The notes below the pieces were generated by a model. The model searched no databases. It was given only the letters and a program-made list of their open reading frames with translations, and was not told the DNA's origin. Source: Candidatus Saccharimonadota bacterium (GTDB lineage: Archaea > Micrarchaeota > Micrarchaeia > Micrarchaeales > Micrarchaeaceae). From it: a stretch of DNA of 32,000 bases. Each line of letters opens with the position of its first letter. Position 1 is the stretch's first letter. The DNA lies in contig OY970071.1 in the NCBI GenBank assembly GCA_963705375.1, forward strand, positions 60,001 to 92,000, given 5' to 3'. A program made the position numbers and the translations under genes. Below are positions 5,193 through 29,948 of this stretch, piece by piece.

Positions 5193-5263
5193 GCAATCAC
5201 AAGAAACAATAATATTTAGCAAAGGCATTTTAATAAGCTTTCCTAATATATTGCATTGTCCTC

Positions 5264-10149: not shown

Positions 10150-10232
10150 TTACTCTTTATAATACGCGACGTTCAGGGACGCTCACTACCGTCGTAAATG
10201 TTCTCTCCCAATTGCATTTTGACGTCGAAGAA

Positions 10233-10243
10233 CCGGCCCCCCA
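10233..10243 (+). repeat. Exact 11-nt copy (CCGGCCCCCCA) of the 3' end of the tRNA-Pro-like gene; candidate attR remnant
   Basis: Identical to 5326-5336 on the same strand. Similarity extends with gaps (CTGC-N-TTT-GT after both copies). A second degenerate match to the T-loop/acceptor segment (AAATCTCCaGCC) lies at 10267-10278. Confidence 0.4.
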
Positions 10244-10316
10244 CTGCATTTGTAGTCTGGACGACTAAATCTCCAGCCACTGCCTATGTATTCTGTTTTA
10301 TAATGGTTATTGTTCG

Positions 10317-10739
10317 ATGTTTTATCGTGGTCTTATGGAAATCGAAACAGGCACCATAAAGCAGAAAGTTGTCATAAATGCAACCCCTGAGGAGATATAC
10401 AATGCATTCATGGATGCTAAGATCCATTCGAAGTTTACGGGCAGCAAGGCTACAATTGTACTCAAAGTTGGAGGCAAGATAACTGCCTGGGACAACTACA
10501 TATTTGGGAAGAACCTCAAACTGGTTAAGGGCAAGAAGATAGTGCAGGAATGGAGCACGACAGAGTGGCCTGATGGTTATCCACCGTCAGTACTTACGAT
10601 AACGCTCAAAAAGGCTAGAAATGGGACAGAACTAACGATGGTTCACTCTAAGGTGCCCAAAGCACAGATGAAAGGCTATGCCGACGGGTGGAAGGGTTAT
10701 TATTGGAAACCGCTAAAGGAATATTTTGAAAACAAATGA
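10317..10739 (+). CDS. SRPBCC-superfamily protein, AHSA1 (activator of Hsp90 ATPase homolog 1-like) domain
   Basis: 140 aa. IKQKVVINATPEEIYNAFMD...HSKFTG...GGKITAWD...I.GKNLKLVKGKKIVQEW...LTITL...GTELTMVHSKVP is the characteristic AHSA1/SRPBCC layout. Confidence 0.85.
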   Translation: MFYRGLMEIETGTIKQKVVINATPEEIYNAFMDAKIHSKFTGSKATIVLKVGGKITAWDNYIFGKNLKLVKGKKIVQEWSTTEWPDGYPPSVLTITLKKARNGTELTMVHSKVPKAQMKGYADGWKGYYWKPLKEYFENK

Positions 10740-10841
10740 AGCTGAGCTCTTCGTTTTAATGCCTTACGGGCCTGTGAAATCCCTTGCGTTTACGCATGAG
10801 GATGAAACAGGCACAGAATATTATCCCTATTTCTCGATTTG

Positions 10842-10870
10842 TCTCCAACGCGGCCGTTAGGCCGCGGAGA
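10842..10870 (+). repeat. Left-end subterminal hairpin of the IS200-type element
   Basis: TCTCCaaCGCGGCC-GTTA-GGCCGCGGAGA: a 7-bp GC stem extended by TCTCC/GGAGA across an AA bulge. It ends 10 nt before tnpA ATG 10880. Confidence 0.6.
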
Positions 10871-10879
10871 CCTGAGAAC

Positions 10880-11326
10880 ATGGATAGTGTAAACTATGAA
10901 AATAAGAACCTTGTGCACAACGCGCACTCCGTGGGTGCGAACGAATATCATCTGCAATGGGTAACAAAATACAGATATGCGACCCTTGAAAAAGAGTCGC
11001 ACTGGAAGGATTGCGATGCGGCAATCCGTTCTGCGGCAGAAAAATATAAAATCAAAATCGTAGAATTGGGCGTAATGGAAGACCCTGTTCACGTAGTTGC
11101 GGAAATTCCTCCCGAGATGTCTGTTTCTCGTGCGATAGGACTTCTGAAAGGTTCAAGTTCCTATGAACTCTTCAGAAAACACCCGAATTTTAGGAAGACA
11201 TATTGGAACGGCCATTTCTGGGGCAGGGGTTATTTTTACAGAACAGTAAGTGAGGTGACCGAAGAAACCATCAGAAATTACGTGCGCAGAGACAACAATA
11301 TGCGTCAGAAGCGACTATGTGCTTGA
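10880..11326 (+). CDS. tnpA: IS200/IS605-family Y1 (HUH) transposase TnpA
   Basis: YHLQWVTKYRY (HUH region: H-L-Q), VMEDPVHVVAEIPPEMSVSRAIGLLKGSSS, and FWGRGYFYRTVS carrying the catalytic-Tyr region. The track ORF starts at 10784, but ATG 10880 follows the left hairpin. Confidence 0.9.
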   Translation: MDSVNYENKNLVHNAHSVGANEYHLQWVTKYRYATLEKESHWKDCDAAIRSAAEKYKIKIVELGVMEDPVHVVAEIPPEMSVSRAIGLLKGSSSYELFRKHPNFRKTYWNGHFWGRGYFYRTVSEVTEETIRNYVRRDNNMRQKRLCA

Positions 11327-11333
11327 AGTAAAT

Positions 11334-11353
11334 CCCACACCTTTAGGTGTGGG
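11334..11353 (+). repeat. Right-end subterminal hairpin of the IS200-type element
   Basis: CCCACACC-TTTA-GGTGTGGG, a perfect 8-bp stem 8 nt after the tnpA stop. Confidence 0.6.
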
Positions 11354-11426
11354 TAGTTTAAACATAAATTCACAGTATCCCGTAATAACGAAAGACTCCT
11401 GTCGCTTGAAAACGGCTCCGAAAGCC

Positions 11427-11876
11427 TCAACTCACAGCTTTCTTCACAAGCGCGACGATTTTCGTCTCTTCTGTTGCAGTCAACTTCTTCAGCGCAAAGG
11501 TGACCGGCCACATGGTGCCTTCGTCGAGGTTCGCTTTGTCGCTGAAGCCCAACGTCGCATACCTTGTCTTGAATTTACCTGCGCCTTGGAAGAAGCAGAT
11601 GACCTTGCCGTCCTTGGCATACGCTGGCATCCCGTACCAGAGCCTGGGGGTAAGGGTCGGCGCGGTAGCTTTGATGATAGTGTGGAGCCGCTTGCTCATT
11701 GTGCGATCCGGTTCTGGCATCTGGGCTATTTTCACGAGCACGGCGCTTTCTGCGTCCGCCTCATCCGCATTGAGCTCTTGAATGCGCTCCTTCATCGCAG
11801 ATATTTCCTCGCTCGTCAACCCCTTGGACTTCTTGGTTGTCTTTTCCCTATTCGAGTCGTTTGTCATGCAGGTCAT
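11427..11876 (-). CDS. YdhG-like/DUF1801-family protein
   Basis: [53 protein letters not shown] matches the DUF1801 core as I recall it. The track ORF extends to 12050 inside the upstream gene. ATG 11876 overlaps the stop of the 847-aa gene (ATGA); ATG 11867 is an alternative. Confidence 0.75.
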
Positions 11877-14416
11877 CTGATTTTGGTGAGTGTGAAAGTG
11901 CCGGTGTATGACGTAGGTGGCGTAGAGCTCTGGAACGGCAAGGTTGGGAACGTGCGGCTCAGCTGAACGGTCTCGCCATTCGGATTTAGCCATACTACGG
12001 GTCTTCCACTCGTGTCGTTTACTACGAGCCGACCGTTGGTGTTGCCCCATGTGGTGCTGAAGATATCTTCAATAACTTCAGACGTGAGGGTGTGCGCCTC
12101 TGTGCCGCCGCAATCCTGAGTCGAATATGTAGAGAAATAATAATTAGGCCATGACACGCTCGACTCTGAGCCTAAAATGAAATACACTCCTTGGCTGCCC
12201 GTGGTCAGACCGTCCTGATCGCTAAAAGTACCGCTGTAAGACGAATGCGGGTTTACGTATGATGGATGCGTTCCGTTAACCCAATCGCAGGTGTATTGGT
12301 ATGTGGCATTGGCAGACCCTGTTTCAGAATCACCTCCGCTTTCAGCAGTGTAAGTACCAACCATAAAATTGGTGAATGACAGTAGTATTTTAATCGAGGT
12401 GCGTTGATGCAAGCCGGCCTGTGTAGCGCTTATGTTCAATATGCCGCTATAAATTCCGGTCTGAAGGCCTGTATTATTTTGTAATATTGAAGTGGTGCTG
12501 TTAGTGATGTTGTAGCTTATCGTAGTGCTGCTTGTTGTCTGATTTTGCACCATGCCCGCAGCTATCACAAGCGAGTTGTTGAGATTGAGTGTGGGGACTC
12601 CTCCAGGTCCTGCTGTGGCGCCTTGCCTTAGCGCCTGGATTACCTGTGCATTTGACAGTGTTGGATATTTTCCCCATAAAATGGCTGCATCCGCAGAACA
12701 TACCGGTGCGGCTAAGGAAGTATATGTATCATAAATGGTTCCAGGTATCCTGCCTGCCGGAGTAGTGAACATGACTCCAAGCGGAGTTTTTGATACTCCC
12801 GCACTGCTTCCCCAGTCTGTTACATTAGATAGTGATAGCCCATCAGAAGAGAGCATTCCGCAGAACTGGAATGCATTCTGTACTGCTTTTCCGAGTGAGG
12901 TATCTGTCTGAATGGCAGAAAAGGCACTTGATAAATTGGCTGCGCTGTTGCCTGCGGCCTTGTTTATCATGACGTTTCCGCCTATGAACCAATCGTTGTC
13001 TTGGAGTGCGCCTGCAAGTCCTGCCACCTCATCAAGCCAGGCATCTGCCTTTTCGGAATTTGAGCAGTCATTGAATCCGTTGGGGCCAACACATACCCCA
13101 TACGTAGAGAAACTTATTACGACCTTTTTGTTCGCCTCTTGTGCTGCATCGATTATTGAGAGAATGGTGACCTTGGAGGAGAATTGATCGGCAACACGGC
13201 TGGATGAACTATCTTGAACTTCTATGTACTGCAATTGAGAGTTGGTAGCCGCATCCATTGCACCTGCCACATCATAGCCGTGGCTGCCTGCATTTTGGAA
13301 GCTATCAACAATTACGGTTATGACGTCAGAAGGCGATGCTGCAATTGCGTTTTGCAACTGGGTGAGATTTGAATCAGAGTGAAATGGGTCGTAGACCGTA
13401 GCGATCGCACTTGCCCGTGCATCAACAAAATCAGGCTCGACTGAGAGTGCCACGCCTGTGGCTTTTACATTATTAATAAAAGTCGATTCATTCTGTGTTC
13501 CCGAGCTGGCAAGGTACAATCCTGCTGACGGAAGATATGCAATCAGAGTGCCGTCATACTTCAGTACTGTGCTGTTAACAGTATCCGTTGACGTGAAAGG
13601 CGAAACCGATATCACCACCCAGCCCGGAACCGCATACAAAGGAATTTTCGAACCATTGGATTGTGTATAGTTGAATATGACAGGCTGCGGCACGGTGCCA
13701 TTGTAGAAAACGGCACCATCGAAAAGTGACTTTGTAGTTGTGATGTTAGGTGATTCGGTATAGCCGAGTGTGATCGGACTGGTTATTGTCAATGAATCTA
13801 CTGGGTTGCCTGGATAATAGAATGTTAGGGAATATGCTCCTGGTACTAGTTGCACATTTATGGTGGCACTTTTGTTATATACTATGTACTCGTTGTTGGA
13901 AAAGATCTTTGATACATTCACATGCATGAAGTTTGTGAATTGAGTACGCGTAAGTAGTGCCAATACGATCGGATATTGTGAACTATATGTGCCAGTTATA
14001 TGTATTTCCGTTGCATTAGCTGGTACCGTGAAATTGCTCCAATACACGCTCACACAGGGCGACGGTTTGCATTGCGAAGTCGTTTGGCCAAATTGAAACG
14101 AGACAGGTCCTTGTGCAAAAAGTGTTTGGGACACGTTGCGAGGCGATAGAACAACTTCTGAATTGTTGTTCACATACACGGCCTCGTCCACAATGTATAA
14201 AATTATTAATAAAAGGACGAACCCCAATGCTATATTTCTTGCCCTGAATATGGACTGCGTAGTCTTTGTTGCCTTTTGTTTTTCTACATCTCTATTACTT
14301 GCTGTTTCATTTCCATTGTTCAAGTTTGCTTTCATCTCCAAATACTGCTTCTTTGTAATCTCGCCGTTGGCATAACGACGCTTGATTATCTTTATGCCTT
14401 CTTCCTCCCCCATCAT
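11873..14416 (-). CDS. Membrane-anchored surface protein: N-terminal SHOCT-like motif, one TM helix, sequon-rich region, subtilase (S8)-like domain
   Basis: 847 aa. [23 protein letters not shown] (SHOCT-like). TM helix [15 protein letters not shown]. Subtilase motifs [10 protein letters not shown] (His), KAAGNSA (oxyanion Asn), and [37 protein letters not shown] (Ser motif plus the following helix). Catalytic Asp not confidently placed. Many NxS/T sequons. Confidence 0.75.
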
Positions 14417-15591: not shown

Positions 15592-16350
15592 ATGAACGCA
15601 ATTATGGGACACCTGTCGAGACTGGCCTATAAAATTACCGGTTGGCAGATAATAGATTCGAAAGGCAACATATCTGTCATAAAGAAGGGAAATATGCTCG
15701 TACTCAAGGAAGGGTTCAAGACATACTCTGCTATAAGGGCTGACACGCTCTATACGCGGCTTTACTATGACTATTTCATACCTCTTGCGTATCTGTATGT
15801 CAAGCCTAAAATACTGGTAGTTGGAATAGGTGGCGGAACAACGCCCCTTCAACTGAACAGATTGTTTGAGAAAGAAGTCGAACTTTATGGGGTCGATACA
15901 AATGTCGAGATGGTAGACCTTGCGAAGAAACATTTCATGCATAATGTGGATATCCAGATTCACATAGAGGACGGCGCAAAGTACGTTTCAGGTGAGAAAA
16001 ACCGCTTTGATTTGATATTTCTGGATGCGTATGAAGATGCTAGGATTCCAAAGCAATTTCTATGCGAAGAGTTCATAAATGATGCAAGCAAAGCCCTTAG
16101 AGGCGACGGCATTCTTGCAATAAATGTGGTGCTTGGCTTGTTCGATCTTATCTCGTACGTAAAAAAACTAAACAAATACTTCAAGGTGTATCATCTAAAA
16201 CCAAACATAAACTCAGACAATGTTCTGCTCGTGTGCTCCAAACGTCTAAACGGACACGAAATATATGAGAAGATCGAAGAGAAGATGCCAAAGAACGATG
16301 AAAATGAGTTCCTTTTTGATAAATACGCTAGTATCGAGAAGTACCTCTAA
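15592..16350 (+). CDS. Spermidine-synthase-like class I SAM-dependent methyltransferase-fold protein
   Basis: ILVVGIGGGTTPLQL (motif I), VELYGVDTNVEMVDLAKKHF, IHIEDGAKYV, FDLIFLDAYED...P..F...EF......L...GILAINV. This is the layout of aminopropyltransferase-like proteins. Confidence 0.8.
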   Translation: MNAIMGHLSRLAYKITGWQIIDSKGNISVIKKGNMLVLKEGFKTYSAIRADTLYTRLYYDYFIPLAYLYVKPKILVVGIGGGTTPLQLNRLFEKEVELYGVDTNVEMVDLAKKHFMHNVDIQIHIEDGAKYVSGEKNRFDLIFLDAYEDARIPKQFLCEEFINDASKALRGDGILAINVVLGLFDLISYVKKLNKYFKVYHLKPNINSDNVLLVCSKRLNGHEIYEKIEEKMPKNDENEFLFDKYASIEKYL

Positions 16351-18891: not shown

Positions 18892-18894
18892 GAC

Positions 18895-18909
18895 TCTGGG
18901 ACAAAAGTC
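18895..18909. repeat. Left terminal inverted repeat (TCTGGGACAAAAGTC)
   Basis: Perfect reverse complement of 20131-20145. Confidence 0.85.
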
Positions 18910-18911
18910 GA

Positions 18912-19073
18912 TTACTTTGATTTCCGCACCATGACGTAAACCATCTTGCCAATGTACTCTTTAGGACAATCGATTTTTGCTCCTGTTCCGAACCGAGTTA
19001 CAGGTTTCTCAAAAACAACTACAACATCGTCTCCGATTTTAAGTTTGTTCTTTATTACTTCAATTTTCCTCAT
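18912..19073 (-). CDS. Small transposon-associated protein (DUF2080-like), 53 aa
   Basis: My own translation: MRKIEVIKNKLKIGDDVVVVFEKPVTRFGTGAKIDCPKEYIGKMVYVMVRKSK. The pattern V..FG.....I..PKE.IGK.V.V resembles the archaeal putative transposon-encoded DUF2080 family. It lies inside the IS, divergent from the transposase. Confidence 0.65.
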   Translation of the reverse strand: MRKIEVIKNKLKIGDDVVVVFEKPVTRFGTGAKIDCPKEYIGKMVYVMVRKSK

Positions 19074-19136
19074 TTACCACACCGTATAATATATATTAAT
19101 ATATATTTAAATACTTTTCCTTTCAATAATAATATC

Positions 19137-20132
19137 ATGGCAAAAACCAAAAGGTTAACGAATAGACAGTTCCGAAGATTTTTCAAGGAGTTCAAGAAAC
19201 TGATTGAGATTTACGGCGAAAAAACGGCAGAAAAACACACTGACTGGAAAACATATGAAGAAGAATATGCAAATAGGATAAGATATGTCGCGAAAGAGTT
19301 GAACATTCTTACAAAATCAGCAATAGACTCTATTGAGATGAAGGTATCCAAATTCGGAAGACCTGCAAAATTGTCTCTCCAACAGAAGGTGGTTGCGCTT
19401 ATCCTAAAATCGATTTTCTGCAAAAACAACAGACCAATGGCCGGACTGATGTCCCTTTTTGGCGCATTTTGTGGCATTGACATTAGTTACAAAACTGTCG
19501 AAAGGATGTATTCTGATGAACTGGTGCGAATTGTTTTGCACAACATGTTTATTCTGACGATAAAACGAAAATGTGATAAGAAAATAGATGTGAGCGGAGA
19601 CGGAACGGGTTACACACTAACAGTAACGAAACATTACCGTACACAAGTCGATAAAGAAGGGTACAGGAAATTCGTGTATTCGTTCAATCTCATCGACATA
19701 AAGAATGGGTTGTACATATGTTATGGCTCGGGTATACGATCTGAAAAGGAAGCATTCGAAAATGCAATGAAGCTGCTCAGAAATGTAGAGGTGGCCACAG
19801 GGATAACAGTCAATAGTGCAAGGTTAGACAGGTACTATAGTTACCAATCAACTTTGAAGTATTTTGACGACAAAACTGTTTTGTACATAATCCCAAAGAG
19901 CAACACAACAATAAATGGCCCGTCTAGATGGAGGAAGATATTCAGACGGATGATGAAGGATCCTCTGTCCTACTTGATAGAGTACTACAAAAGGGAGAAG
20001 TCTGAGAATGGTTGGTCTGTAGATAAACGGATGGTTGGGTGGAAAATATGGCAGAAAAGAAATGACAGAATCGATACAGCAATAAGTTGTACTGCAACAC
20101 TTCACAACTTATTCAGAATCGGTTATGGATGA
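19137..20132 (+). CDS. DDE-type transposase
   Basis: 331 aa inside the IR-bounded element. Candidate DDE residues in DVSGDGTGY, SARLDRYYS and YYKREKSENGWSVDKR. The stop overlaps the right IR. Confidence 0.88.
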   Translation: MAKTKRLTNRQFRRFFKEFKKLIEIYGEKTAEKHTDWKTYEEEYANRIRYVAKELNILTKSAIDSIEMKVSKFGRPAKLSLQQKVVALILKSIFCKNNRPMAGLMSLFGAFCGIDISYKTVERMYSDELVRIVLHNMFILTIKRKCDKKIDVSGDGTGYTLTVTKHYRTQVDKEGYRKFVYSFNLIDIKNGLYICYGSGIRSEKEAFENAMKLLRNVEVATGITVNSARLDRYYSYQSTLKYFDDKTVLYIIPKSNTTINGPSRWRKIFRRMMKDPLSYLIEYYKREKSENGWSVDKRMVGWKIWQKRNDRIDTAISCTATLHNLFRIGYG

Positions 20133-20145
20133 CTTTTGTCCCAGA
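20131..20145. repeat. Right terminal inverted repeat (GACTTTTGTCCCAGA)
   Basis: Perfect reverse complement of 18895-18909. Confidence 0.85.
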
Positions 20146-20157
20146 ATCGACTCTCTA
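20146..20157. repeat. Right copy of 12-bp target-site duplication ATCGACTCTCTA
   Basis: Identical to 18880-18891. Confidence 0.8.
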
Positions 20158-20161
20158 ATAA

Positions 20162-20173
20162 CATATAAATATT
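20162..20173 (+). promoter_or_regulatory. TATA-like box (CATATAAATATT) of the lyase-like gene pair
   Basis: Located 5 nt after the IS target duplication, ~32 nt before TTG 20205 and ~47 nt before ATG 20220. Confidence 0.35.
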
Positions 20174-20219
20174 AGGAAGCGGCCAAGAGTGCACCGATGA
20201 TGCTTTGGCAACAAAGGAG

Positions 20220-21161
20220 ATGGAGCCGACAAAGTCAAAAACTAGGCCTTCTACTGCCGCTCCATTTGATGTGCCTGCTGTCGATGCCGAAGTGCTGAAT
20301 ATATTTAAGAAATACCAGGTCGTGTGCCATATGCGCGATTCTGATGATTTCTTCTTCCATGTTTATTCTCGGCCAGACCTTGAAAAAGAGCTAGAAGCGC
20401 TGCAAGTGAAAACGGACGTGGGTTATAAGCTGCACGTTAACGTTTCGGATGAGTGCATCCCTCAATTTCTTGACGAGGCAATAAAGTTGCTTAGCGAAAA
20501 AGGCGCAGACTTCAAAGTGATGCGGCCCAGCATGCGGGACCGCGCCTCGGAAGGGCAACAATGCAAATTACTTACGATTTTTACTAGAAGCAAGTTCCGG
20601 GCAGAAACGATAGCCTCAGATCTTGAACGCATACTCGAACCTCCGACTTGTAAATACGAATACCATAGTGGCACTATTCCATCAAATGAAATAAAGTATA
20701 ATGATTACATAACTTACAGGTACTGCAACTTCAAAGACAGCATTCTTCATAATCCTTGGAATCCTTATGAAAGAATAGACGGCTTGGAAAGCCGGTTGGG
20801 GGCAAAGTTCGCAGACTGGACCGAGCCGCTTGGCGAAACCCACATAGTTTCGCGTAGTGACGTCCTTAACGGGGCTGCAAAGTTAGGAGACATCGTGATG
20901 ATACTGAGAAGGCACGTACCTGTAAGGTTTTCAAATTGTACGTTCTTAAAAGCAGAGCTTCTGGACTATAATGCTCATCGTGACCTTCAGAACCAGATCG
21001 ATCAGAATCAAACTGCCAACATTAAAACCAAGCACCCACAAACTGTGAACTTGCTTGTCGTGGTCGATGGCCTGGATTATTTCTGGACAAACGTTCCAGT
21101 GGATTACCTAATGGCCCGTGTACCGAAAGGCATTACTTCAGACATCACTTTGGAAAACTGA
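20220..21161 (+). CDS. Stand-alone phospho-Ser/Thr-lyase-like protein (LanKC/LanL N-terminal lyase domain / HopA1-OspF-like), paralog 1
   Basis: ORF 20205..21161 (ATG 20220 or TTG 20205). Motifs in order: GYKLHVNVSDEC, DFKVMRPS, CKLLTIFT, ITYRYCNF. C-terminal module IVSRSDVLNGAAKLGDIVMIL...AELLDY...NVPVDYL. The coding call is strong; the family call rests on motif recall. Confidence 0.6.
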   Translation: MEPTKSKTRPSTAAPFDVPAVDAEVLNIFKKYQVVCHMRDSDDFFFHVYSRPDLEKELEALQVKTDVGYKLHVNVSDECIPQFLDEAIKLLSEKGADFKVMRPSMRDRASEGQQCKLLTIFTRSKFRAETIASDLERILEPPTCKYEYHSGTIPSNEIKYNDYITYRYCNFKDSILHNPWNPYERIDGLESRLGAKFADWTEPLGETHIVSRSDVLNGAAKLGDIVMILRRHVPVRFSNCTFLKAELLDYNAHRDLQNQIDQNQTANIKTKHPQTVNLLVVVDGLDYFWTNVPVDYLMARVPKGITSDITLEN

Positions 21162-21171
21162 GGCGGATTCC

Positions 21172-21996
21172 ATGCCCAATAATTACGCAAAGCCGCAAGA
21201 GTCTCTGCCCATTATCCAGCATAATTTCACCTTATGGACGGACGATAAGGTTCGCGAAGCATTCGGCGAAAAAGGCTGCAAAGAGGAAGGATCTTTTTTC
21301 ATTTCAAAAAACATGTTTTTTATTCCGGAAAGTAAGGGCGCGTTTAAAGGTTACAAAATTCATGTTAACGTTTCAGACGAGTGTGTTCTGAGCTTCCTTG
21401 AAGAATTTGTACCGAAGCTCGAAGACAAAGGTGTGGTTTTCAAAGTATGGAGGCCTAGCAAGCTTAACGACGCTGAAGCAGCAGGACAAGGTAAGCTATT
21501 GACGATCTATGCGCAAAGCAGATACGAAGCGCTGCAGATATGCGACATGCTTGAACCCTTGATTGTTAAATACCTAAACGACATCCTGCCACAACGAGAA
21601 AAAACATTAGAATCGCCAAAACATCCGAATCTAACGGGGTTTGTATCTTATCGGTATTGTACTTTCACTAAACAACCTCTCTGCGATTCTTGGCATGCCG
21701 GAATACGAATAACTGATGACGAAAGCAGGAACGGTAATAAAGCAGGATGGGCCAGAGGTCTTGACGAAATTCCTCGCATCGTTTCGCGTTTAGACGTTAT
21801 TGAAGGAAGGGCAAAAATAGGCGACATGGTGCTTCTGCAACGGCAAGGTCAGGATGTGCCTGCAGAACTTTTGGATTATGACCCTATTCGCAATACCGTT
21901 TGCGTGCTTGACATTCATGTTCTCGGCATGATCGTGCTGATGAATGCTGTGCCTGTGGATAAGTTGTCGGAGTCACTTCTGCGAAATGATCCGTGA
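21172..21996 (+). CDS. Stand-alone phospho-Ser/Thr-lyase-like protein, paralog 2
   Basis: ORF 21118..21996. ATG 21172 lies 10 nt after the paralog-1 stop and has GAGG 8 nt upstream. Motifs GYKIHVNVSDEC, VFKVWRPS, GKLLTIYA, VSYRYCTF, then IVSRLDVIEGRAKIGDMVLL...AELLDY...AVPVDKL. Confidence 0.6.
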   Translation: MPNNYAKPQESLPIIQHNFTLWTDDKVREAFGEKGCKEEGSFFISKNMFFIPESKGAFKGYKIHVNVSDECVLSFLEEFVPKLEDKGVVFKVWRPSKLNDAEAAGQGKLLTIYAQSRYEALQICDMLEPLIVKYLNDILPQREKTLESPKHPNLTGFVSYRYCTFTKQPLCDSWHAGIRITDDESRNGNKAGWARGLDEIPRIVSRLDVIEGRAKIGDMVLLQRQGQDVPAELLDYDPIRNTVCVLDIHVLGMIVLMNAVPVDKLSESLLRNDP

Positions 21997-22245: not shown

Positions 22246-23271
22246 ATGGAAAAGAACGCATATCTAGGCAAAAAATTGAAACACATAAGCATGACTACAA
22301 ACAGCATAACGGAGCTTATTGACACGTACTCGTCAATGGCATTCCAGTCTAGGAACCTCGCGAACGCAACAAAGATATTCGAGCGCATGCTCCAGGACAA
22401 GGATTGCTCAATAATCCTGTGCCTTGCTGGATCCATATTCAGCGCTGGCCTGAAAAAGCTCGTATACGAGATGATCGAGAACAACATGGTCGATGCCATA
22501 GTGTCCACTGGCGCAATAATGGTCGACCAGGACTTCTTTGAGGCTCTTGGCTTCTACCATTACATAGGGACTCCGATGTCCGATGACGAGGACTTGAGGC
22601 AGAAGCACATAGACAGAATCTATGATACCTACATAGACGAAGACGAGCTTAGGGTGTGCGATGAAACAGTCGGAATGATAGCAGACGGCCTCGATCCGCG
22701 TCCTTACTCTTCTAGAGAGTTTGTGATAGAGATGGGCAAATATCTCACAAAGAACTGCAAGAAGGACGACTCAGTGGTTCTGGCCGCATACAAGAAAGGT
22801 GTGCCAATATTCATACCCTCTTTCTCAGACTCTAGCGCGGGCTTCGGCCTGATACACCACCAGACACAAAATCCAAAGTCGCACGTCTCAATCGATTCGG
22901 CGAAAGACTTCCTTGAGCTTACCAAGGTGAAGCTGGCTGCAAAGGAGACTGGATTGTTGATGATAGGCGGCGGCGTTCCAAAGAACTTCACCCAAGATAT
23001 TGTTGTTGCAACGGACGTGCTCGGAAAGCCTGCGCCAATGCACAAGTATGCAATTCAGATAACTGTTGCAGATGAGCGTGATGGTGGGCTTTCGGGATCA
23101 ACCTTGAAAGAGGCCCATTCGTGGGGCAAGGTCGATACAAGCAACACCCAGATGGTGTATGCTGAGGCGACGCTCGCGATGCCGTTGATGATGTCGTATG
23201 TCTATCACAGCGGTGCCTGGAAGGGAAGGACTTCCAAGAACTACAACAAAGTGCTGAAAGATGCGGAATGA
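22246..23271 (+). CDS. dys: Deoxyhypusine synthase
   Basis: 341 aa. FQSRNLANATKIFERML, LAGSIFSAGL, DAIVSTGA, RIYDTYIDEDELRVCD, IGGGVPKNF, EAHSWGK (catalytic Lys region). Confidence 0.93.
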   Translation: MEKNAYLGKKLKHISMTTNSITELIDTYSSMAFQSRNLANATKIFERMLQDKDCSIILCLAGSIFSAGLKKLVYEMIENNMVDAIVSTGAIMVDQDFFEALGFYHYIGTPMSDDEDLRQKHIDRIYDTYIDEDELRVCDETVGMIADGLDPRPYSSREFVIEMGKYLTKNCKKDDSVVLAAYKKGVPIFIPSFSDSSAGFGLIHHQTQNPKSHVSIDSAKDFLELTKVKLAAKETGLLMIGGGVPKNFTQDIVVATDVLGKPAPMHKYAIQITVADERDGGLSGSTLKEAHSWGKVDTSNTQMVYAEATLAMPLMMSYVYHSGAWKGRTSKNYNKVLKDAE

Positions 23272-23319
23272 TTTCGCAGGCATCTAAGCGCAAAGCACGA
23301 GCAAGAGGGATCGGATAGC

Positions 23320-24162
23320 ATGAGCAAGACACGGATCGGCATCGTCCAGATGAAGATGGGTGCCGACAACAAAAAGAATCTTGCCCATGCCCTGAAGATG
23401 ATCAACGAGGCTGCACGGAAAGGTGCAGATATAGTCTGCCTTCCCGAGCTCTTCAGTTCGCGCTACTTTCCTCAGTACAGAGGATTGCCAAAGATTGCGG
23501 AACCAGTTCCTGGCCCTACCACCAATGCGTTGTCCGATGCTGCAAAGGGAGAACAACGTTGTTCATTGTTGGGGGCTCTGTGTATGAGAAATCGCAGGGC
23601 AAGTTCTACAACACCGCTGTGGTCTTCGATCAGAACGGCAGGATTTTAGGAAAATACAGGAAGGTCCACATACCATTCGATCCCCACTATTATGAGAAGG
23701 ACTATTTCTCTTCAGGTAGGGAGTACAAGACATTTGACACTAAGCTTGGTAAGGTTTCGGTGCTCATATGCTTCGACCAGTGGTATCCGGAGCCTGCAAG
23801 GATCTGCAAGCTCGATGGGTGCAGAGATGCTGTTCTACCCGACTGCAATAGGCACTGTAAGGGGCGTTGAGCAGGCGGAAGGCAAGTGGCAAGAAGCATG
23901 GGAGAACGTTCAGCGCGGCCATGCCATATCAAACAGCCATGATCATCTGCGCGGTCAACAGGAGTTGGTGTTGAAGGCGATCTGGATTTCTGGGGCGGTT
24001 CCTTTGTCATAGACCAGTTCGGGAAGACATTGTTCCGTGCCGGAAATAAGGAAGGCGTCTTCGTGGTGTTCTTGCGACCTCTCGCTGGGGCGCGACGTCG
24101 AATCAGGGTGGGGTTTCATCAGAAACAGAAGAGCTGGTACTTATGGCTACATCTCCCGCTAA
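23320..24162 (+). pseudogene. aguB: N-carbamoylputrescine amidase-like carbon-nitrogen hydrolase, interrupted by six 1-nt insertions
   Basis: Homology runs through frames 1,2,3,1,2,3,1. Segments: MSKTRIGIVQ...CLPELF...DAAK | ENNVV | IVGGSVYE...YRKVHIP...VLICFDQWYPEPAR..LD | GAEMLFYPTAIG...RGHAISN | AMIICAVNR | VGVEGDLDFWGGSFVIDQFGK...GVFVV | SCDLSLGRDVESGWGFIRNRR...*. Track ORFs 23320, 23559, 23692 and 24030 are fragments of this gene. Confidence 0.8.
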
Positions 24163-25192
24163 ATCAACAGGTGCTGCTCCTTTTGCAATGGGCTACCGCA
24201 TGCCTGCAGAATGGAGTGCTCACGAGGCTACGTGGCTTTCGTGGCCGAAGGATCCTGTAACTTTCCCTGGAGATTCTGTGAAAAAAGTAGAGCAGACCTA
24301 TGTCCAGATGATGGGTGAGCTACGGCACGGCGAGCGCGTGGATCTGCTTGTTGACAACCAGGAAACTCAAGACGCGGTCTCCAACATGATGGGCCAAAAG
24401 GACAATGTAATGTTCCACAAGATTCGCACCGTTGATGTATGGGTGCGGGACTATGGCCCTATATTCGTCAAAGGAAAGGGCATAGCCGCGACAAAGTGGA
24501 CATTCAACGCATGGGGCGACAAGTACGAGGAGCTCAAATATGACGATACGGCTGGGATGCAGGTTGCCGCTTATACCGGGTTTCAGACTTTCAAGCCAGG
24601 AATAGTGCTGGAGGGTGGCTCCATAGACGTTAACGGCCTTGGGTCTTGCATAACGACAAAACAGTGCCTCCTCAACCCAAACCGCAATCCACAACTCAAG
24701 CAAAAAGACATCGAAATGCTTCTGCGCGATTATCTTGGGATAACGCACGTGATCTGGCTCGAAAAGGGTGTGGCTGGCGATGACACTGATGGGCACGTCG
24801 ATGACATCGCTAGATTCGTGAATCCAAACACGGTGGTCTGCATGGTCGAGAAGGATGAGCGCGACGAAAATTATGAGGTGCTGAAGTCCAACTTCGAGCA
24901 GCTGTCCGCATCAATGGACCAGTCAGGAAGCAGGCTTAACGTGATTCCGATACAGATGCCTGGCAAGGTGAGCCTCGAAGATACGAGGTTGCCTGCAAGC
25001 TACGCAAACTTTTACATAGCGAATTCAGTTGTTCTTGTCCCTGTTTTTAACGATCCGAACGACCGTCAGGCACTAGAAACTCTGCGCCATGCATTCCCTC
25101 ATAAAAAAGTTGTGGGTGTCGACTGCAGGGCATTGGTCCAAGGACTTGGAACGATCCATTGTGTGACCCAACAGCAGCCTGCGCCTGAATAA
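24143..25192 (+). CDS. aguA: Agmatine deiminase
   Basis: 349 aa. YRMPAEWSAHEATWLSWP, VWVRDYGPIFV, FNAWG, EGGSIDVNG, TDGHVDDIARFV, GTIHCVTQQQP (catalytic Cys). Confidence 0.92.
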   Translation: MATSPAKSTGAAPFAMGYRMPAEWSAHEATWLSWPKDPVTFPGDSVKKVEQTYVQMMGELRHGERVDLLVDNQETQDAVSNMMGQKDNVMFHKIRTVDVWVRDYGPIFVKGKGIAATKWTFNAWGDKYEELKYDDTAGMQVAAYTGFQTFKPGIVLEGGSIDVNGLGSCITTKQCLLNPNRNPQLKQKDIEMLLRDYLGITHVIWLEKGVAGDDTDGHVDDIARFVNPNTVVCMVEKDERDENYEVLKSNFEQLSASMDQSGSRLNVIPIQMPGKVSLEDTRLPASYANFYIANSVVLVPVFNDPNDRQALETLRHAFPHKKVVGVDCRALVQGLGTIHCVTQQQPAPE

Positions 25193-27244: not shown

Positions 27245-27372
27245 CTACATATTGTCCTGCTGGAATATAAAAGAGTTGTTTCTGTGCCGTTACTGCAGAT
27301 AAAAAGCGATTGATCTCTCATGCACACAACCTTCTTATAGTTTCGTCTGGTTCCTATTCATCAAGGAGCTTA

Positions 27373-28350
27373 ATGGAAAATATAATTCGCGTCGAAAAAC
27401 TTAGGAAGACTTTCCTGACCAAGCACAAAGAGCCAGGTCTATCCGGAAGCTTAAGGTCGGTGATCTCTCCGAAGTTCACGGAATACTCTGCAGTAAATGG
27501 CATAAGCTTCGATGTGAAGAAGGGCGATGTCCTTGGCTTCCTTGGGCCTAATGGTGCAGGAAAGAGCACCACCATAAAAATGCTTGTCGGAATACTGTTT
27601 CCGACATCTGGAAATGTGGATGTGCTGGGATACGTGCCATGGAAACAGAGGAGAAAGCTCGCATACAAGATAGGCACTGTCTTCGGGCAGAAGCCGCAAC
27701 TCTGGTACCATCTTCCTGCCATTGACACCTTCAATCTCATGTCGAAGATATACGAGCTTGAAGATGGCGCATACAGGCGGCGCCTCAAGTACCTTGTCGA
27801 TCTTTTTGAGATCGACTATCTGGACATTCCAGTTCGCAGGCTATCTTTAGGTCAGCGCATGCGCGCAGAGATAGTCGCATCGCTACTGCACGAGCCTGAG
27901 CTGCTGCTTCTTGATGAGCCGACGATAGGCCTTGACATAATAGCAAAGCAGAAGATACGTGAACTGATACGGGAACTGAACAGGGATGATGATGTGACCG
28001 TCTTCCTGACATCGCACGACATGGATGATGTGGAGAAGCTGTGCAACAGGGCCATAATCATAAATCATGGCTCGATCGTGCTAGATGATACGCTAGAAAG
28101 CATGAAACACAGATACGTGCAGAGCAAGCGCATAGACGTAAAGCTGAACGAGGTTCCGAAACGTTTCGCATTTCCAGGGGCAACGCTAGTGAAACGCAGT
28201 CCATATGCTCTCAGCATAGAACTTGATAATAGAAAGGGCAACATAAGCGAGCTCATAGACTACCTTACGCACAGCTTCAAGATCGCAGACATAAACATAG
28301 CAGATCCTCCCATCGAGGAGATAATCGCTAACATATACCGCAAGAAGTGA
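27373..28350 (+). CDS. ABC transporter ATP-binding protein (ABC-2 type, uncharacterised-transport-system ATPase)
   Basis: Walker A GPNGAGKST, Q-loop, signature LSLGQRMR, Walker B LLLLDEPTIGLD, H-loop TSHDM. ATG 27373 is preceded by AAGGAG. The track ORF starts at 27310. Confidence 0.92.
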   Translation: MENIIRVEKLRKTFLTKHKEPGLSGSLRSVISPKFTEYSAVNGISFDVKKGDVLGFLGPNGAGKSTTIKMLVGILFPTSGNVDVLGYVPWKQRRKLAYKIGTVFGQKPQLWYHLPAIDTFNLMSKIYELEDGAYRRRLKYLVDLFEIDYLDIPVRRLSLGQRMRAEIVASLLHEPELLLLDEPTIGLDIIAKQKIRELIRELNRDDDVTVFLTSHDMDDVEKLCNRAIIINHGSIVLDDTLESMKHRYVQSKRIDVKLNEVPKRFAFPGATLVKRSPYALSIELDNRKGNISELIDYLTHSFKIADINIADPPIEEIIANIYRKK

Positions 28351-28354
28351 GTAT

Positions 28355-29155
28355 GTGTCGTGGACAAAATACCTCTCGATTGCAAAGCTTGAGATGTCGA
28401 ACAACCTGACCTATGCGGGCGATGTCGTTGCCAGGGGCATTTTCATAGCAGCCATTCTTTTCATCTTCTATAACCTGTGGAGCACAATATACCGCAGTTC
28501 CGCTTCCACCGTGCTGTCAGGCTTTACTCTTTCTGGCATATTGTGGTACCTTGTCCTGTCAGAATCCGTTGTGGCTGGCGGCAGGGGCAGGAGCATGGCG
28601 TTCTTCCTTTCAGACGACATCAAGTCAGGCAACATAGCGCAGGTGCTGAACAAGCCATACGATTTTGTCGCATTCTATTTTGCGTCAAATATAGGAAATT
28701 CGATCTTCATAATGCTCATGTCTTTCATGATAAGCGGCGCGATGATATATGCGCTGGTAGGTGCGCCCCACCTCAGCATCGCAGAGCTTCCGTTTGTGGC
28801 GCTGTCTATATTTCTTGCTCTTGTGCTCCAGTTCTTTCTTTACTTCTCAATCGGTTTGTGTGCGTTCTGGTTTGAGGATGTCTCCGCATTCAGGTGGATA
28901 ACCGAGAAGCTGGTCTTCGTTCTTGGAGGCATGCTCATACCCCTGAACTTCTTCCCGAAGATATTCCAGACCATAGCGAGCATTCTGCCCTACAGCTACA
29001 TGTCTTACGCGCCGGCATACCTGTTTGTCAATTTCAGCCTAAGCGGTGCCATATCTTCGATGCTGGTGCAGCTAGTATGGGTGATCCTGCTTGTGGCCTG
29101 TGCTTTCGGTCTTTACGGTCTGGGTGCCAAAAAGGTGTCTATAAATGGCGGTTAA
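28355..29155 (+). CDS. ABC-2 family permease subunit 1
   Basis: 266 aa with multiple hydrophobic helices. GTG start 4 nt after the ATPase stop. Typical second gene of the three-gene uncharacterised ABC-2 system. Confidence 0.8.
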   Translation: MSWTKYLSIAKLEMSNNLTYAGDVVARGIFIAAILFIFYNLWSTIYRSSASTVLSGFTLSGILWYLVLSESVVAGGRGRSMAFFLSDDIKSGNIAQVLNKPYDFVAFYFASNIGNSIFIMLMSFMISGAMIYALVGAPHLSIAELPFVALSIFLALVLQFFLYFSIGLCAFWFEDVSAFRWITEKLVFVLGGMLIPLNFFPKIFQTIASILPYSYMSYAPAYLFVNFSLSGAISSMLVQLVWVILLVACAFGLYGLGAKKVSINGG

Positions 29156-29948
29156 TCATAAGAAACACGGCCTGACTGGGTTCCTCTTTGCCACGTTCAA
29201 GCTGAACATACAGTCTGCGATGGAATACCGGGCCAACTTTCTGACCCAGGTTGTTGGCATGTTCATCAACGACATAGCCTTCCTTATATTCTGGATGATA
29301 GTGTACAACAGATTTCATTCGATCAACGGCTGGAACCTTAACGACGTCATGATGATGCAAGCAATAGTTACGATAGGTTTCGGGATTGCGTCGTTCTTTG
29401 CCGGCAACTGGGAGAGTATTGCCGACGTGATATCGAAAGGCGGCCTGGACTACTACCTTGTACTGCCTAAACCTGTACTGTTGCACCTGCTTGTAACAAG
29501 AAGCCAGCTCTCGGGAATCGGCGATGCTCTTTTCGGTGCTGTGATCGCTATTTATCTGTTTCACAACGCCGTAGCTTTGGTCCCATTGTTCTTGCTATTG
29601 ACGCTGATGTCCGGAACAATTCTGGTGAGCTTTGGAATTGCCATCGGCTCACTGACTTTCTTCATCGGGGGTCGCGGTGACCTACAGACCACACTTATCA
29701 ATGCGGTGGTTACCTTCTCAACGTATCCGCTTGGAATATTCGGCGGGTTTGCGAGGCTAATGCTGCTCACAGTGATACCTGTCGGATTTATCACAGGAAT
29801 ACCTGTTATTATACTCAAGAGCTTTAGCGGGACCTATCTGCTGTACATGATCGTAGCCACTCTCGTGTCGGTTCTTGCAGCATACTCCTTGTTTAAGCTC
29901 GGGCTCAGACATTATGAATCAGGCAACGCGATAAACGTACAAATATAG
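29145..29948 (+). CDS. ABC-2 family permease subunit 2
   Basis: 267 aa, polytopic. Overlaps the preceding permease by 11 nt. Confidence 0.8.
   Translation: MAVNHKKHGLTGFLFATFKLNIQSAMEYRANFLTQVVGMFINDIAFLIFWMIVYNRFHSINGWNLNDVMMMQAIVTIGFGIASFFAGNWESIADVISKGGLDYYLVLPKPVLLHLLVTRSQLSGIGDALFGAVIAIYLFHNAVALVPLFLLLTLMSGTILVSFGIAIGSLTFFIGGRGDLQTTLINAVVTFSTYPLGIFGGFARLMLLTVIPVGFITGIPVIILKSFSGTYLLYMIVATLVSVLAAYSLFKLGLRHYESGNAINVQI

What the first reader, a model, noticed from the sequence alone, without database searches (positions are those of the whole stretch)
20205..21996. Tandem stand-alone paralogs resembling the phospho-Ser/Thr lyase domain of class III/IV lanthipeptide synthetases (OspF/SpvC/HopA1-like) in an archaeal genome
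Two adjacent, closely spaced genes (stop TGA 21159-21161; GAGG 8 nt before ATG 21172) encode proteins that align by eye along their whole length. Both carry the same motifs in the same order: G-Y-K-[L/I]-H-V-N-V-S-D-E-C, F-K-V-[M/W]-R-P-S, [C/G]-K-L-L-T-I-[F/Y], and [T/S]-Y-R-Y-C-x-F. This order and spacing match what I recall for the N-terminal lyase domain of LanKC/LanL enzymes (GWKxHVS ... FKF ... GKxxTxYP ... RYGGF). That domain is homologous to the OspF/SpvC/HopA1 phosphothreonine lyases, and the K-x-H dyad and the FK lysine correspond to catalytic residues there. Here the domain is not fused to a kinase or cyclase, is duplicated, and carries a shared ~80-aa C-terminal module (IVSRxDVxxGxAKxGDxV ... 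AELLDY ... VPVD) that I cannot assign. I found no LanC-like cyclase, Ser/Thr kinase or Cys-containing precursor-like small ORF adjacent. Possible roles are irreversible beta-elimination of phosphate from phosphoproteins (self, or host if the organism is a symbiont) or a split peptide-dehydration pathway. A free-standing duplicated lyase pair is not a described archaeal system to my knowledge.
Basis: partly seen in the sequence, partly recalled or inferred. Interest (0 to 1): 0.8.

Follow-up and report, generated by a model that had tools for sequence, protein, structure and literature searches.

The report
Kinase-less phospho-lyase paralogs in an archaeon
Two adjacent archaeal genes encode free-standing relatives of the enzyme domain that bacteria use to strip phosphate irreversibly from phospho-serine/threonine (in lanthipeptide synthesis and in OspF/SpvC virulence effectors), here fused to a small beta-barrel instead of a kinase; the family is very rare and diverges unusually fast.

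Summary
Genes A (20220-21161) and B (21172-21996) are co-oriented paralogs 10 nt apart (40% identity, E 1e-35). Their N-terminal ~190 residues belong to the OspF/SpvC/LanKC-lyase superfamily. Evidence:
- Pfam RamC_N matches both: A just above the curated cutoff, B just below.
- A family profile searched against 1.84 billion proteins retrieves almost only RamC_N proteins.
- A confident AlphaFold model (pLDDT 85) matches the class III synthetases ThurKC, CuvL, SalKC and PneKC first.
- The catalytic Lys-x-His, FK-Lys, GK-Lys, Asp/Glu and Arg are invariant in both proteins.

The shared C-terminal module is an unassigned small beta-barrel, Tudor/SH3-like at fold level only. It is duplicated in some relatives.

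No kinase, LanC cyclase or precursor lies near any of about eight family loci, so these are not lanthipeptide synthetases.

The family has only about 10 clusters, all in archaeal or unplaced contigs; one is Micrarchaeota. A close relative shares the flanking genes at 69-89% identity but its lyase gene at only about 40%. A and B are old paralogs, not a recent duplication.

Most likely they are stand-alone phospho-Ser/Thr lyases acting in trans on phosphoproteins. The target is unknown. This is a new variant of a known kind.

The parts
20164..20171 (+). TATA-like box (TATAAATA) about 34-50 nt upstream of the candidate starts of gene A. It lies just outside the right end of the IS5 element. Putative archaeal promoter of the A-B pair.
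   Evidence: Read directly from the sequence. Inference only; no archaeal promoter tool was available.
20220..21161 (+). Gene A, 313 aa (P0001). An alternative in-frame TTG start lies at 20205. Architecture: RamC_N-type lyase domain plus one C-terminal beta-barrel module.
20268..20828 (+). Lyase domain of A (about residues 17-203). Candidate catalytic residues: K70 (20427-20429), H72 (20433-20435), K99 (20514-20516), K116 (20565-20567), E157 (20688-20690), R167 (20718-20720), R192 (20793-20795).
   Evidence: Pfam RamC_N 27.9 bits against cutoff 27. Profile alignment to ThurKC. Published residue roles. Column conservation. Foldseek top hits are LanKC structures. Coordinates.
20832..21119 (+). 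C-terminal beta-barrel module of A (about residues 205-300), carrying SRSDV..G.AKLGD.V ... AELLDY ... VPVD, with a roughly 25-residue insertion relative to B.
   Evidence: Only weak fold hits to Tudor/PWWP/SAWADEE (E 0.5-2). No Pfam family and no significant PDB sequence match.
21160..21163 (+). GAGG ribosome-binding-like motif, overlapping the stop codon of A and 8 nt before the ATG of B. The 10-nt intergenic gap implies co-transcription.
21172..21996 (+). Gene B, 274 aa (P0005). Lyase domain about residues 10-197, with K62, H64, K91, K108, E143, R161 and R186. Beta-barrel module about residues 199-274.
   Evidence: (RamC_N 25.4 bits, E 1.1e-5)
18892..20148 (+). IS5-family insertion sequence immediately upstream of gene A. 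Terminal inverted repeats at 18892-18909 and 20131-20148; transposase at 19137-20132. This is context, not part of the system.
   Evidence: The short-read assembly L004 begins at about window position 20121, inside the right end of the IS.

Best explanation
A and B are two anciently diverged members of a very small archaeal family of free-standing phospho-Ser/Thr beta-elimination lyases. Each has a catalytic domain of the OspF/SpvC/LanKC-lyase superfamily joined to a small C-terminal beta-barrel.

Inferred mechanism, by analogy with SpvC and ThurKC:
- The Lys of GYK-x-H, the Lys of GK..T.Y and the two Arg (RY and SR.G) hold the phosphate.
- The FK lysine abstracts the alpha-proton.
- The His, assisted by the PP.E glutamate, protonates the leaving phosphate.
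- The product is dehydroalanine or dehydrobutyrine, an irreversible removal of the phospho mark.

No kinase is fused or adjacent, so the phosphorylated substrate must be made by a kinase encoded elsewhere, in the same cell or in another one. The beta-barrel most plausibly docks the substrate protein or peptide, playing the role that the docking motif plays in OspF and the kinase/leader-binding region plays in LanKC.

The extreme divergence of the genes between close relatives fits a target that itself changes quickly (conflict or host interaction). The target is not identified.

What is shown: homology, fold, conservation of catalytic residues, architecture, rarity, context and divergence. What is inferred: the chemistry, action in trans, and the role of the barrel.
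For: Homology
- Pfam RamC_N matches A (27.9 bits, E 1.9e-6) and B (25.4 bits, E 1.1e-5).
- NCBIfam gives weak N-terminal matches to LanL and LanKC, and to OspF for the relative P0003.
- A family profile searched against 1.84e9 proteins finds 135 hits. Of 110 non-family hits scanned, 109 carry RamC_N, 26 carry Pkinase and 14 carry LANC_like.
- A profile search of the PDB gives LanKC 8sap at E 2e-6, OspF 3i0u at 1.6e-3, VirA 3bo6 at 2.7e-3 and SpvC 2z8m at 0.055.

Fold
- The AlphaFold model has pLDDT 85.3 and pTM 0.86.
- Its top 15 Foldseek PDB hits are all class III synthetases (ThurKC, CuvL, SalKC, PneKC): ranks 1-10 at E 1e-6 to 3e-4, ranks 11-15 (all PneKC) at E 1.4e-3 to 0.04.

Catalytic residues
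- K70, H72, K99, K116, E157 and R167 align with ThurKC K65, H67, K94, K117, D152 and R163. Alanine substitution of K65, K94 or R163 abolishes dehydration in ThurKC; H67A, K117A and D152A impair it.
- These positions are invariant in the 5-sequence alignment A1, which includes B. They are kept in 47-50 of 50 distant RamC_N proteins.

No fused or neighbouring kinase or cyclase.

Docking-module idea
- The barrel is present once or twice in every family member and in the 1183-aa P0012.

Fast divergence
- Flanking orthologues are 69-89% identical, against about 40% for the lyase genes.
Against: - There is no biochemical evidence for any kinase-less RamC_N protein.
- hmmscan matches only profile positions 30-114 of 191 in RamC_N. 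B is below the curated cutoff.
- The equivalent of SpvC R220 (R192 in A) is assigned only by a 2-column shift in a loop region.
- I could not inspect model coordinates, so spatial clustering of the seven residues is untested.
- The barrel has no significant sequence or fold assignment (E 0.5-2).
- Whether the genome encodes Ser/Thr kinases cannot be checked from a 32 kb window.
- One divergent relative (P0011) lacks the RY arginine in the alignment.
Confidence: 0.55

Rival explanations
1. Split RiPP (lanthipeptide-like) dehydration pathway. A and/or B would be the lyase half of a class V-style kinase-plus-lyase dehydratase. The kinase, precursor peptide and any cyclase would be encoded elsewhere in the genome.
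For: The closest sequence and structure relatives are class III synthetase lyase domains. Split kinase/lyase dehydratases exist in bacteria: LxmKY appears in the fold search, and stand-alone kinase and lyase clusters are noted in PMC4159009. ABC-2 type transporters lie within a few kb of the lyase gene in the window, L011 and L015.
Against: None of about eight independent family contexts has a kinase, a LanC-like cyclase, a Cys/Ser/Thr-rich small ORF or a leader protease. The only conserved neighbours are polyamine genes. The 73-aa antisense ORF between B and the next gene has no room in L011 or L003, where that intergenic gap is only 95 nt. RiPP enzymes are normally clustered with their substrates.
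Confidence: 0.12
2. Non-catalytic phospho-peptide reader or regulator. The lyase-like domain would bind phosphorylated partners without eliminating the phosphate, and the pair would act as a scaffold.
For: The phosphate-binding residues are the same ones that would be kept in a pure binder. The barrel is fold-similar to reader domains (Tudor/PWWP), weakly. P0011 lacks the RY arginine.
Against: The residues assigned to acid/base catalysis, not only to binding, are invariant across the core family and in both A and B: the FK lysine, the His and the PP.E glutamate. No inactive member of this superfamily came up in the papers consulted here.
Confidence: 0.08
3. An enzyme acting on a non-protein phosphoester, or functionally tied to the adjacent polyamine genes (deoxyhypusine-synthase-like gene, N-carbamoylputrescine amidase-like gene, agmatine deiminase).
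For: The gene lies directly upstream of the DS-like gene, on the same strand, in the window and in L003/L011. The gap to the DS-like gene is only 95 nt in L011.
Against: The two organisms are close relatives (DS-like protein 89% identical), so the shared order may simply be inherited. Five other family loci have no polyamine genes nearby. Every characterised member of the superfamily named in the papers and PDB entries consulted acts on pSer/pThr in peptides or proteins.
Confidence: 0.06

Closest known systems
Lyase domain of class III/IV lanthipeptide synthetases (LanKC/LanL; Pfam RamC_N PF25816; structures of ThurKC 8SAP, CuvL 8CAV, SalKC 9UGQ, PneKC 8WGO)
   Same: Best sequence and structure match. 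Same order of GxKxH, FK, GKxxTxY, D/E and RY motifs. All residues tested by mutagenesis in ThurKC except K108 have conserved counterparts; the R191 counterpart is assigned by inference only.
   Different: No kinase domain, no cyclase domain and no precursor gene. Instead there are one or two C-terminal beta-barrel modules. The host is archaeal. Family-specific motifs (NPWN, SR.G, W.RGL) lie in the second half of the domain, which the Pfam model does not align.
OspF/SpvC/VirA type III-secreted phosphothreonine lyases
   Same: Free-standing lyases that act in trans on proteins phosphorylated by someone else's kinase. Same catalytic constellation. Detectable by profile: OspF E 1.6e-3, VirA 2.7e-3, SpvC 0.055; OspF NCBIfam hit for P0003.
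   Different: More distant than the LanKC branch. No type III secretion context and no MAPK docking motif. The extra beta-barrel module is absent from these effectors. The host is archaeal, not proteobacterial.
Class V split dehydratase LxmK/LxmY and other HopA1-type stand-alone lyases
   Same: The lyase is a separate polypeptide from the kinase. Weak fold similarity (9DK1-9DK3 chain B, E 0.05-0.1).
   Different: No Pfam HopA1 match. No partner kinase gene adjacent. No RiPP cluster.
Kinase-less bacterial RamC_N proteins, including C-terminal RamC_N domains behind pretoxin-HINT modules
   Same: These are the nearest non-family hits (P0014-P0021). They also lack kinases. Some are clearly toxin or effector cargo (P0024, P0025).
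   Different: Other accessory regions. Apart from P0012, the few examined (P0014, P0015) lack the SR.D..G..K.GD.V barrel module. All are uncharacterised.

Membership tests
OspF/SpvC/LanKC-lyase superfamily (RamC_N branch, PF25816) | Significant match to the curated family profile | tested here: met
   A scores 27.9 bits against cutoff 27. B scores 25.4 bits, just under, with E 1.1e-5. In the reverse direction, 109 of 110 non-family proteins retrieved by the family profile carry RamC_N.
OspF/SpvC/LanKC-lyase superfamily (RamC_N branch, PF25816) | Catalytic and phosphate-binding residues equivalent to SpvC K104, H106, K136, R148, D201, R213 and R220 (ThurKC K65, H67, K94, K117, D152, R163, R191) | tested here: met
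   A has K70, H72, K99, K116, E157 and R167; B has K62, H64, K91, K108, E143 and R161. These are aligned and invariant. The seventh residue (A R192, B R186) is family-invariant but mapped only by inference, through a 2-column offset.
OspF/SpvC/LanKC-lyase superfamily (RamC_N branch, PF25816) | Alpha/beta lyase fold | tested here: met
   The model has pLDDT 85.3. Foldseek ranks 1-15 are all LanKC structures: ranks 1-10 at E 1e-6 to 3e-4 with probability 1.00, ranks 11-15 at E 1.4e-3 to 0.04. Residue geometry in the model could not be inspected.
OspF/SpvC/LanKC-lyase superfamily (RamC_N branch, PF25816) | Beta-elimination of phosphate from pSer/pThr | not testable with these tools
   This needs an enzyme assay.
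Class III/IV lanthipeptide synthetase (LanKC/LanL) | Lyase-kinase-cyclase three-domain polypeptide | tested here: not met
   The proteins are 313 and 274 aa and have no Pkinase or LANC_like hit. NCBIfam LanL/LanKC scores are 16-18 bits against cutoffs of 575-650.
Class III/IV lanthipeptide synthetase (LanKC/LanL) | Adjacent precursor peptide (LanA) gene | tested here: not met
   No conserved small ORF lies next to the family genes in the window or in L001, L010, L011, L012, L014 or L015.
OspF/SpvC type III effectors | Match to the effector equivalog model | tested here: not met
   A and B give no hit to NF052433. The relative P0003 scores 18 bits against a cutoff of 250.
Class V split dehydratase (LxmK/LxmY type) | HopA1-family lyase encoded next to its partner kinase | tested here: not met
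   There is no HopA1 Pfam hit. LxmY appears only at Foldseek E 0.05-0.1. No kinase lies in the window or in any homologue context.
Tudor/SH3-like 'royal family' barrels (C-terminal module) | Significant sequence or fold match to a defined barrel family | tested here: inconclusive
   Foldseek hits to Tudor, PWWP, SAWADEE and chromo domains reach only E 0.5-2. SGF29 tandem Tudor scores E 0.8-1.6 by profile. No Pfam family matches.

The most novel reading that the evidence does not exclude
The family is an archaeal counterpart of OspF-type effectors. These would be fast-evolving phospho-lyases of small (possibly DPANN/Micrarchaeota-type symbiotic) archaea. They would irreversibly erase Ser/Thr phosphorylation on proteins of a partner or host archaeon, or of a virus, with the beta-barrel as the target-docking module. 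That would make them the first eliminylation enzymes, and the first inter-archaeal phospho-signalling effectors, described in Archaea.
Probability: 0.15. Interest if true: 0.85.

Novelty: new variant of a known kind. Interest (0 to 1): 0.55.

Why it matters
Phospho-Ser/Thr lyases carry out an irreversible protein modification. So far it is known from bacterial virulence effectors and from lanthipeptide synthetases. Two papers in the library searched here report LanL/SpvC-type lyases and class III/IV lanthipeptide clusters only in bacteria.

This family puts an apparently intact lyase of that type into archaea, in a new architecture: lyase plus beta-barrel, without a kinase. Its divergence pattern resembles that of conflict genes.

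If the family is active, it would show that archaeal phospho-signalling can be shut off by elimination rather than hydrolysis. It would give a compact, kinase-independent dehydroalanine-forming enzyme for protein engineering. It would also offer an entry point for studying interactions of small-genome archaea with their partners.

Tried and rejected
- **Single-sequence PDB search with A.** It gave only designed repeat proteins, which are spurious.
- **Word-indexed homologue searches.** Three searches (A, B and the 11-sequence family profile A3, all three allowed) returned only six distinct proteins, counting A and B themselves. The full HMMER scan was needed to find the rest.
- **First AlphaFold run.** With 5 sequences it was too poor to use (pLDDT 54.8). 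It was redone with 61 sequences.
- **Wider collections.** The GTDB-representative scan gave one partial Micrarchaeota locus. The metagenome scan returned only two contigs already known. IMG/VR, phages and plasmids gave nothing.
- **PADLOC.** No defence-system model matches A or B.
- **C-terminal module.** No Pfam family and no significant PDB sequence match. P0035, which matched the barrel region 15 times, is an unrelated Big_13 repeat protein.
- **Small-ORF comparison.** No conserved partner peptide was found. The 83-aa ORF before P0002 resembles by eye the N-terminal extension of P0004/P0006, suggesting a split or frameshifted gene rather than a partner.
- **Naming the source organism.** Accession searches in the literature found nothing, and cluster look-ups carry no names.
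- **Recent tandem duplication.** Rejected on the tree.
- **Functional link to the hypusine/polyamine genes.** Considered and down-weighted, because the only two genomes sharing that order are close relatives.
Full report
**Observation**

- Gene A runs from TTG 20205, or from ATG 20220 (the start used by public gene calls, P0001, 313 aa), to the TGA at 21159-21161.
- Gene B runs from ATG 21172 to 21996 (P0005, 274 aa). GAGG lies 8 nt before its ATG, and only 10 nt separate the genes.
- BLASTP of A against B gives 40% identity over 197 residues, E 1e-35.

**What the N-terminal domain is**

Five independent lines agree.
1. Pfam RamC_N (PF25816, the N-terminal lyase domain of class III synthetases) matches A at 27.9 bits (cutoff 27, E 1.9e-6) and B at 25.4 bits (E 1.1e-5).
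2. NCBIfam gives weak matches confined to the N-terminal part of the LanL and LanKC models. For the relative P0003 it also matches the OspF effector model. All scores are far below the full-length cutoffs.
3. A profile of five family members was searched with HMMER against 1.84 billion representative proteins and found 135 proteins at E <= 1e-3.
   - About ten of these align over their full length.
   - The others match only profile positions around 40-160.
   - Of 110 of those others scanned against Pfam, 109 carry RamC_N, 26 also carry Pkinase and 14 carry LANC_like.
4. An 11-sequence family profile against PDB sequences hits LanKC 8SAP (E 2e-6), 9WJ0 (6.5e-5), OspF 3I0U (1.6e-3), VirA 3BO6 (2.7e-3) and SpvC 2Z8M (0.055).
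5. An AlphaFold2 model of A built on a 61-sequence alignment is confident (mean pLDDT 85.3, pTM 0.86).
   - Its best 15 Foldseek matches in the PDB are all class III synthetases (ThurKC, CuvL, SalKC, PneKC). Ranks 1-10 have E 1.3e-6 to 3e-4 and probability 1.00; ranks 11-15 (all PneKC) have E 1.4e-3 to 0.04.
   - The class V stand-alone lyase LxmY follows at E 0.05-0.1.

**Catalytic residues**

The ThurKC structure paper (PMC10604976) lists the lyase residues as K65, H67, K94, K108, K117, D152, R163 and R191. It equates them with SpvC K104, H106, K136, R148, D201, R213 and R220 (K108 has no SpvC equivalent). K65A, K94A, K108A and R163A abolish dehydration; H67A, K117A, D152A and R191A impair it or leave phosphorylated intermediates.

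The HMMER alignment of the family profile to ThurKC places the residues as follows.

| Motif in the family | ThurKC residue | Protein A | Protein B |
|---|---|---|---|
| GYK-L-H (Lys) | K65 | K70 | K62 |
| GYK-L-H (His) | H67 | H72 | H64 |
| FK | K94 | K99 | K91 |
| GK..T.Y | K117 | K116 | K108 |
| PP.E | D152 | E157 | E143 |
| YRY | R163 | R167 | R161 |

- All six positions are invariant in the five-sequence alignment that includes B.
- They are kept in 47-50 of 50 distant RamC_N proteins; position 157 is D or E in 48 of 50.
- A seventh residue, the family-invariant Arg of SR.G (A R192, B R186), lies two alignment columns from the conserved D.R arginine of other RamC_N proteins. I take it to be the ThurKC R191 / SpvC R220 equivalent, but this is inference.
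- I could not inspect model coordinates, so the spatial clustering of these residues is untested.

**The C-terminal module**

The shared tail (SR.D[VI]..G.AK[IL]GD.V ... G[YF]..AE[LI] ... V.L ... I[ST]..P) is a mainly beta module of roughly 80 residues.
- It occurs once in A, B, P0003, P0007, P0008, P0009 and P0011, and twice in P0002, P0004 and P0006. It also follows the lyase domain in the 1183-aa P0012.
- It has no Pfam family and no significant PDB sequence match.
- At fold level only weak matches appear, to Tudor, PWWP, SAWADEE and chromo barrels (E 0.5-2). SGF29 tandem Tudor scores E about 1 by profile.
- I therefore call it an unassigned SH3/Tudor-like barrel.

**Size and distribution of the family**

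- The family proper has about ten clusters at 50% identity among 1.84 billion representatives.
- Word-indexed searches and collection scans added nothing beyond these. There is no match in IMG/VR, phage or plasmid collections.
- The only hit in the GTDB species-representative genomes is a Candidatus Micrarchaeota MAG.
- The contig carrying P0139 has archaeal ribosomal protein and RNA polymerase subunit genes.
- The window itself has an RFC small subunit, type 2 IPP isomerase and a deoxyhypusine-synthase-family gene.
- The phylum of the window could not be established.

**Context**

- No protein kinase, LanC-like cyclase, leader protease or conserved small ORF lies next to any family gene. This holds for the 32 kb window and for L001, L010, L011/L003, L012/L013, L014, L015 and L016.
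- An IS5-family element lies just upstream of A. Its inverted repeats are at 18892-18909 and 20131-20148.
- Downstream lies a polyamine cluster:
  - a DS-family gene whose best NCBIfam match is 1,9-bis(guanidino)-5-aza-nonane synthase (561 bits, cutoff 500);
  - an N-carbamoylputrescine-amidase-like CN_hydrolase;
  - an agmatine deiminase.
- The same order, lyase gene then DS-like gene then CN_hydrolase, is found in L003/L011. That organism is a close relative of the window's organism, so the shared order may simply be inherited.

**Divergence between close relatives**

Nucleotide collinearity with L011 (77% identity) starts at the first bases of the DS-like gene, where its protein begins to align, and runs on downstream. 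Upstream it resumes only at window 11425-11867. Protein identities between the window and L011 are as follows.

| Gene | Identity, window vs L011 |
|---|---|
| DS-like protein | 89% |
| CN_hydrolase (intact L004 copy used) | 81% |
| Agmatine deiminase | 76% |
| 143-aa gene (L011 165-596) | 69% |
| A vs the single L011 lyase gene (P0138) | 40% |
| B vs P0138 | 40% |

- The lyase genes therefore sit at the edge of a variable island. They have either diverged far faster than their neighbours or been replaced by distant family members.
- In an NJ tree (237 columns, 200 bootstraps), B groups with P0009 (92.5%) and loosely with P0003 (63%). A is not sister to B. The pair is old, not a recent tandem duplication.
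- No PADLOC defence model matches A or B.

**Mechanism**

The most economical reading is that A and B are active, free-standing pSer/pThr beta-elimination lyases that act in trans.
- The chemistry is inferred from the full conservation of residues shown by mutagenesis to be required or important in ThurKC and assigned phosphate-binding or acid/base roles in SpvC.
- Action in trans follows from the lack of a fused or neighbouring kinase.
- The barrel as a docking module is inferred from its constant association with the domain.
- Fast divergence, IS elements and a variable island suggest a changeable target. So does the use of RamC_N domains as C-terminal cargo behind pretoxin-HINT modules in bacteria (P0024, P0025). 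This does not prove a conflict role.

I put 0.55 on this explanation. Three rivals remain:
- a split RiPP pathway, 0.12;
- a non-catalytic phospho-reader, 0.08;
- a role tied to the polyamine genes or to a non-protein phosphoester, 0.06.

**Comparison with what is known**

- The proteins are members of the lyase superfamily, on the RamC_N branch, by profile, residues and fold.
- They are not class III/IV synthetases: the three-domain architecture and the precursor gene were tested and not met.
- They are not OspF-type effectors by the equivalog model.
- They are not a class V LxmK/LxmY-type pair: there is no HopA1 match and no partner kinase.
- Functionally they would work most like OspF/SpvC, as a lone lyase attacking proteins phosphorylated by another enzyme.
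- Literature held here:
  - Khater and Mohanty 2014 (PMC4159009) state that SpvC-like and LanL-like lyases occur exclusively in bacteria.
  - Walker et al. 2020 (PMC7268733) found only class II lanthipeptide clusters in archaea.
  - No paper combining phosphothreonine lyase with polymorphic toxins was found, and none of the three papers combining Micrarchaeota, effector and lyase concerns such an enzyme, judging by title and abstract.

**Verdict**

The finding is real, and the homology call is correct. The interpretation needs trimming: this is not a fresh duplication, it is not lanthipeptide biosynthesis, and being free-standing is not in itself unique.

The new elements are the architecture, the archaeal host, the rarity and the divergence pattern. 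I class it as a new variant of a known kind, with interest 0.55.

Noticed in passing
window 22998-24131 (mainly the CN_hydrolase gene, about 23268-24155): All 27 differences between the window and the short-read assembly L004 of the same organism fall in this 1.1 kb: 20 substitutions and 7 single-base insertions in the window. The other roughly 3.1 kb of the 4.3 kb overlap, including genes A and B, is identical. The window's CN_hydrolase is split over at least three frames, while L004 has one intact 295-aa gene. This is either a decaying pseudogene or strain variant, or a locally poor stretch of assembly.
   Followed up: partly
window 18892-20148: A complete IS5-family element with 18-nt terminal inverted repeats (18892-18909 and 20131-20148) and a 331-aa transposase. 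It is inserted between a nitroreductase gene and gene A, and GC drops to 0.37 there. The short-read contig L004 begins inside its right end, at about window position 20121, as expected for a multi-copy repeat.
   Followed up: partly
window 10784-11966: An IS200-like Y1 transposase (10784-11326) is followed by an overlapping 215-aa ORF with no Pfam hit. Synteny with the related contig L011 resumes at 11425-11867. The 8 kb from there to gene A has no counterpart in L011 and looks like a variable island. It holds an 847-aa orphan, a methyltransferase, a 2-thiouracil desulfurase and a nitroreductase.
   Followed up: partly
window 22246-25192: The 'deoxyhypusine synthase' gene scores best, and above cutoff, against the NCBIfam model for 1,9-bis(guanidino)-5-aza-nonane synthase (561 bits against 500). 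It is followed by a CN_hydrolase and an agmatine deiminase. This looks like an agmatine-based polyamine cluster rather than a plain hypusine gene.
   Followed up: no
proteins P0024, P0025 (also P0026, P0044, P0081, P0087, P0110): In some proteins the RamC_N lyase domain sits at the extreme C-terminus. P0024 and P0025 have it behind a pretoxin-HINT domain (shown individually). The five others have it within about 45 residues of the C-terminus of 729-3026 aa proteins. One of the 110 proteins scanned also carries an eCIS_core domain. This is the layout of polymorphic-toxin cargo. A search of the held literature for papers combining phosphothreonine lyase and polymorphic toxin found none.
   Followed up: partly
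window 27310-29948 and L015 3440-5988: A homologous ABC transporter lies 2-6 kb from the lyase gene in two unrelated family loci. It consists of an ABC_tran ATPase plus ABC2_membrane_6 permeases, and the ATPase is about 45% identical by tblastx. L011 has a different ABC-2 transporter upstream. This may be coincidence.
   Followed up: no
L001 9714-9965, next to P0002 at 10001-11113: The 83-aa ORF just upstream of P0002 resembles, by eye, the helical N-terminal extension that is fused to the lyase domain in P0004 and P0006. P0002 may therefore be a split or frameshifted long form.
   Followed up: partly
window 5264-5336: A tRNA-Pro(TGG) was found by ARAGORN. Rfam confirms it at 40.7 bits in a local scan, but the whole-window Rfam scan at gathering threshold reported nothing. 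The 394-aa ORF at 4230-5414 overlaps it. The RFC model match starts at residue 76, so the real RFC start lies downstream of the tRNA.
   Followed up: yes
window 15592-16350: A SAM-methyltransferase/spermidine-synthase-like protein matches the PADLOC model mad2 (mads_2) at E 2.7e-14. No other defence-system component was found among the nine other window proteins scanned in the same PADLOC search.
   Followed up: no
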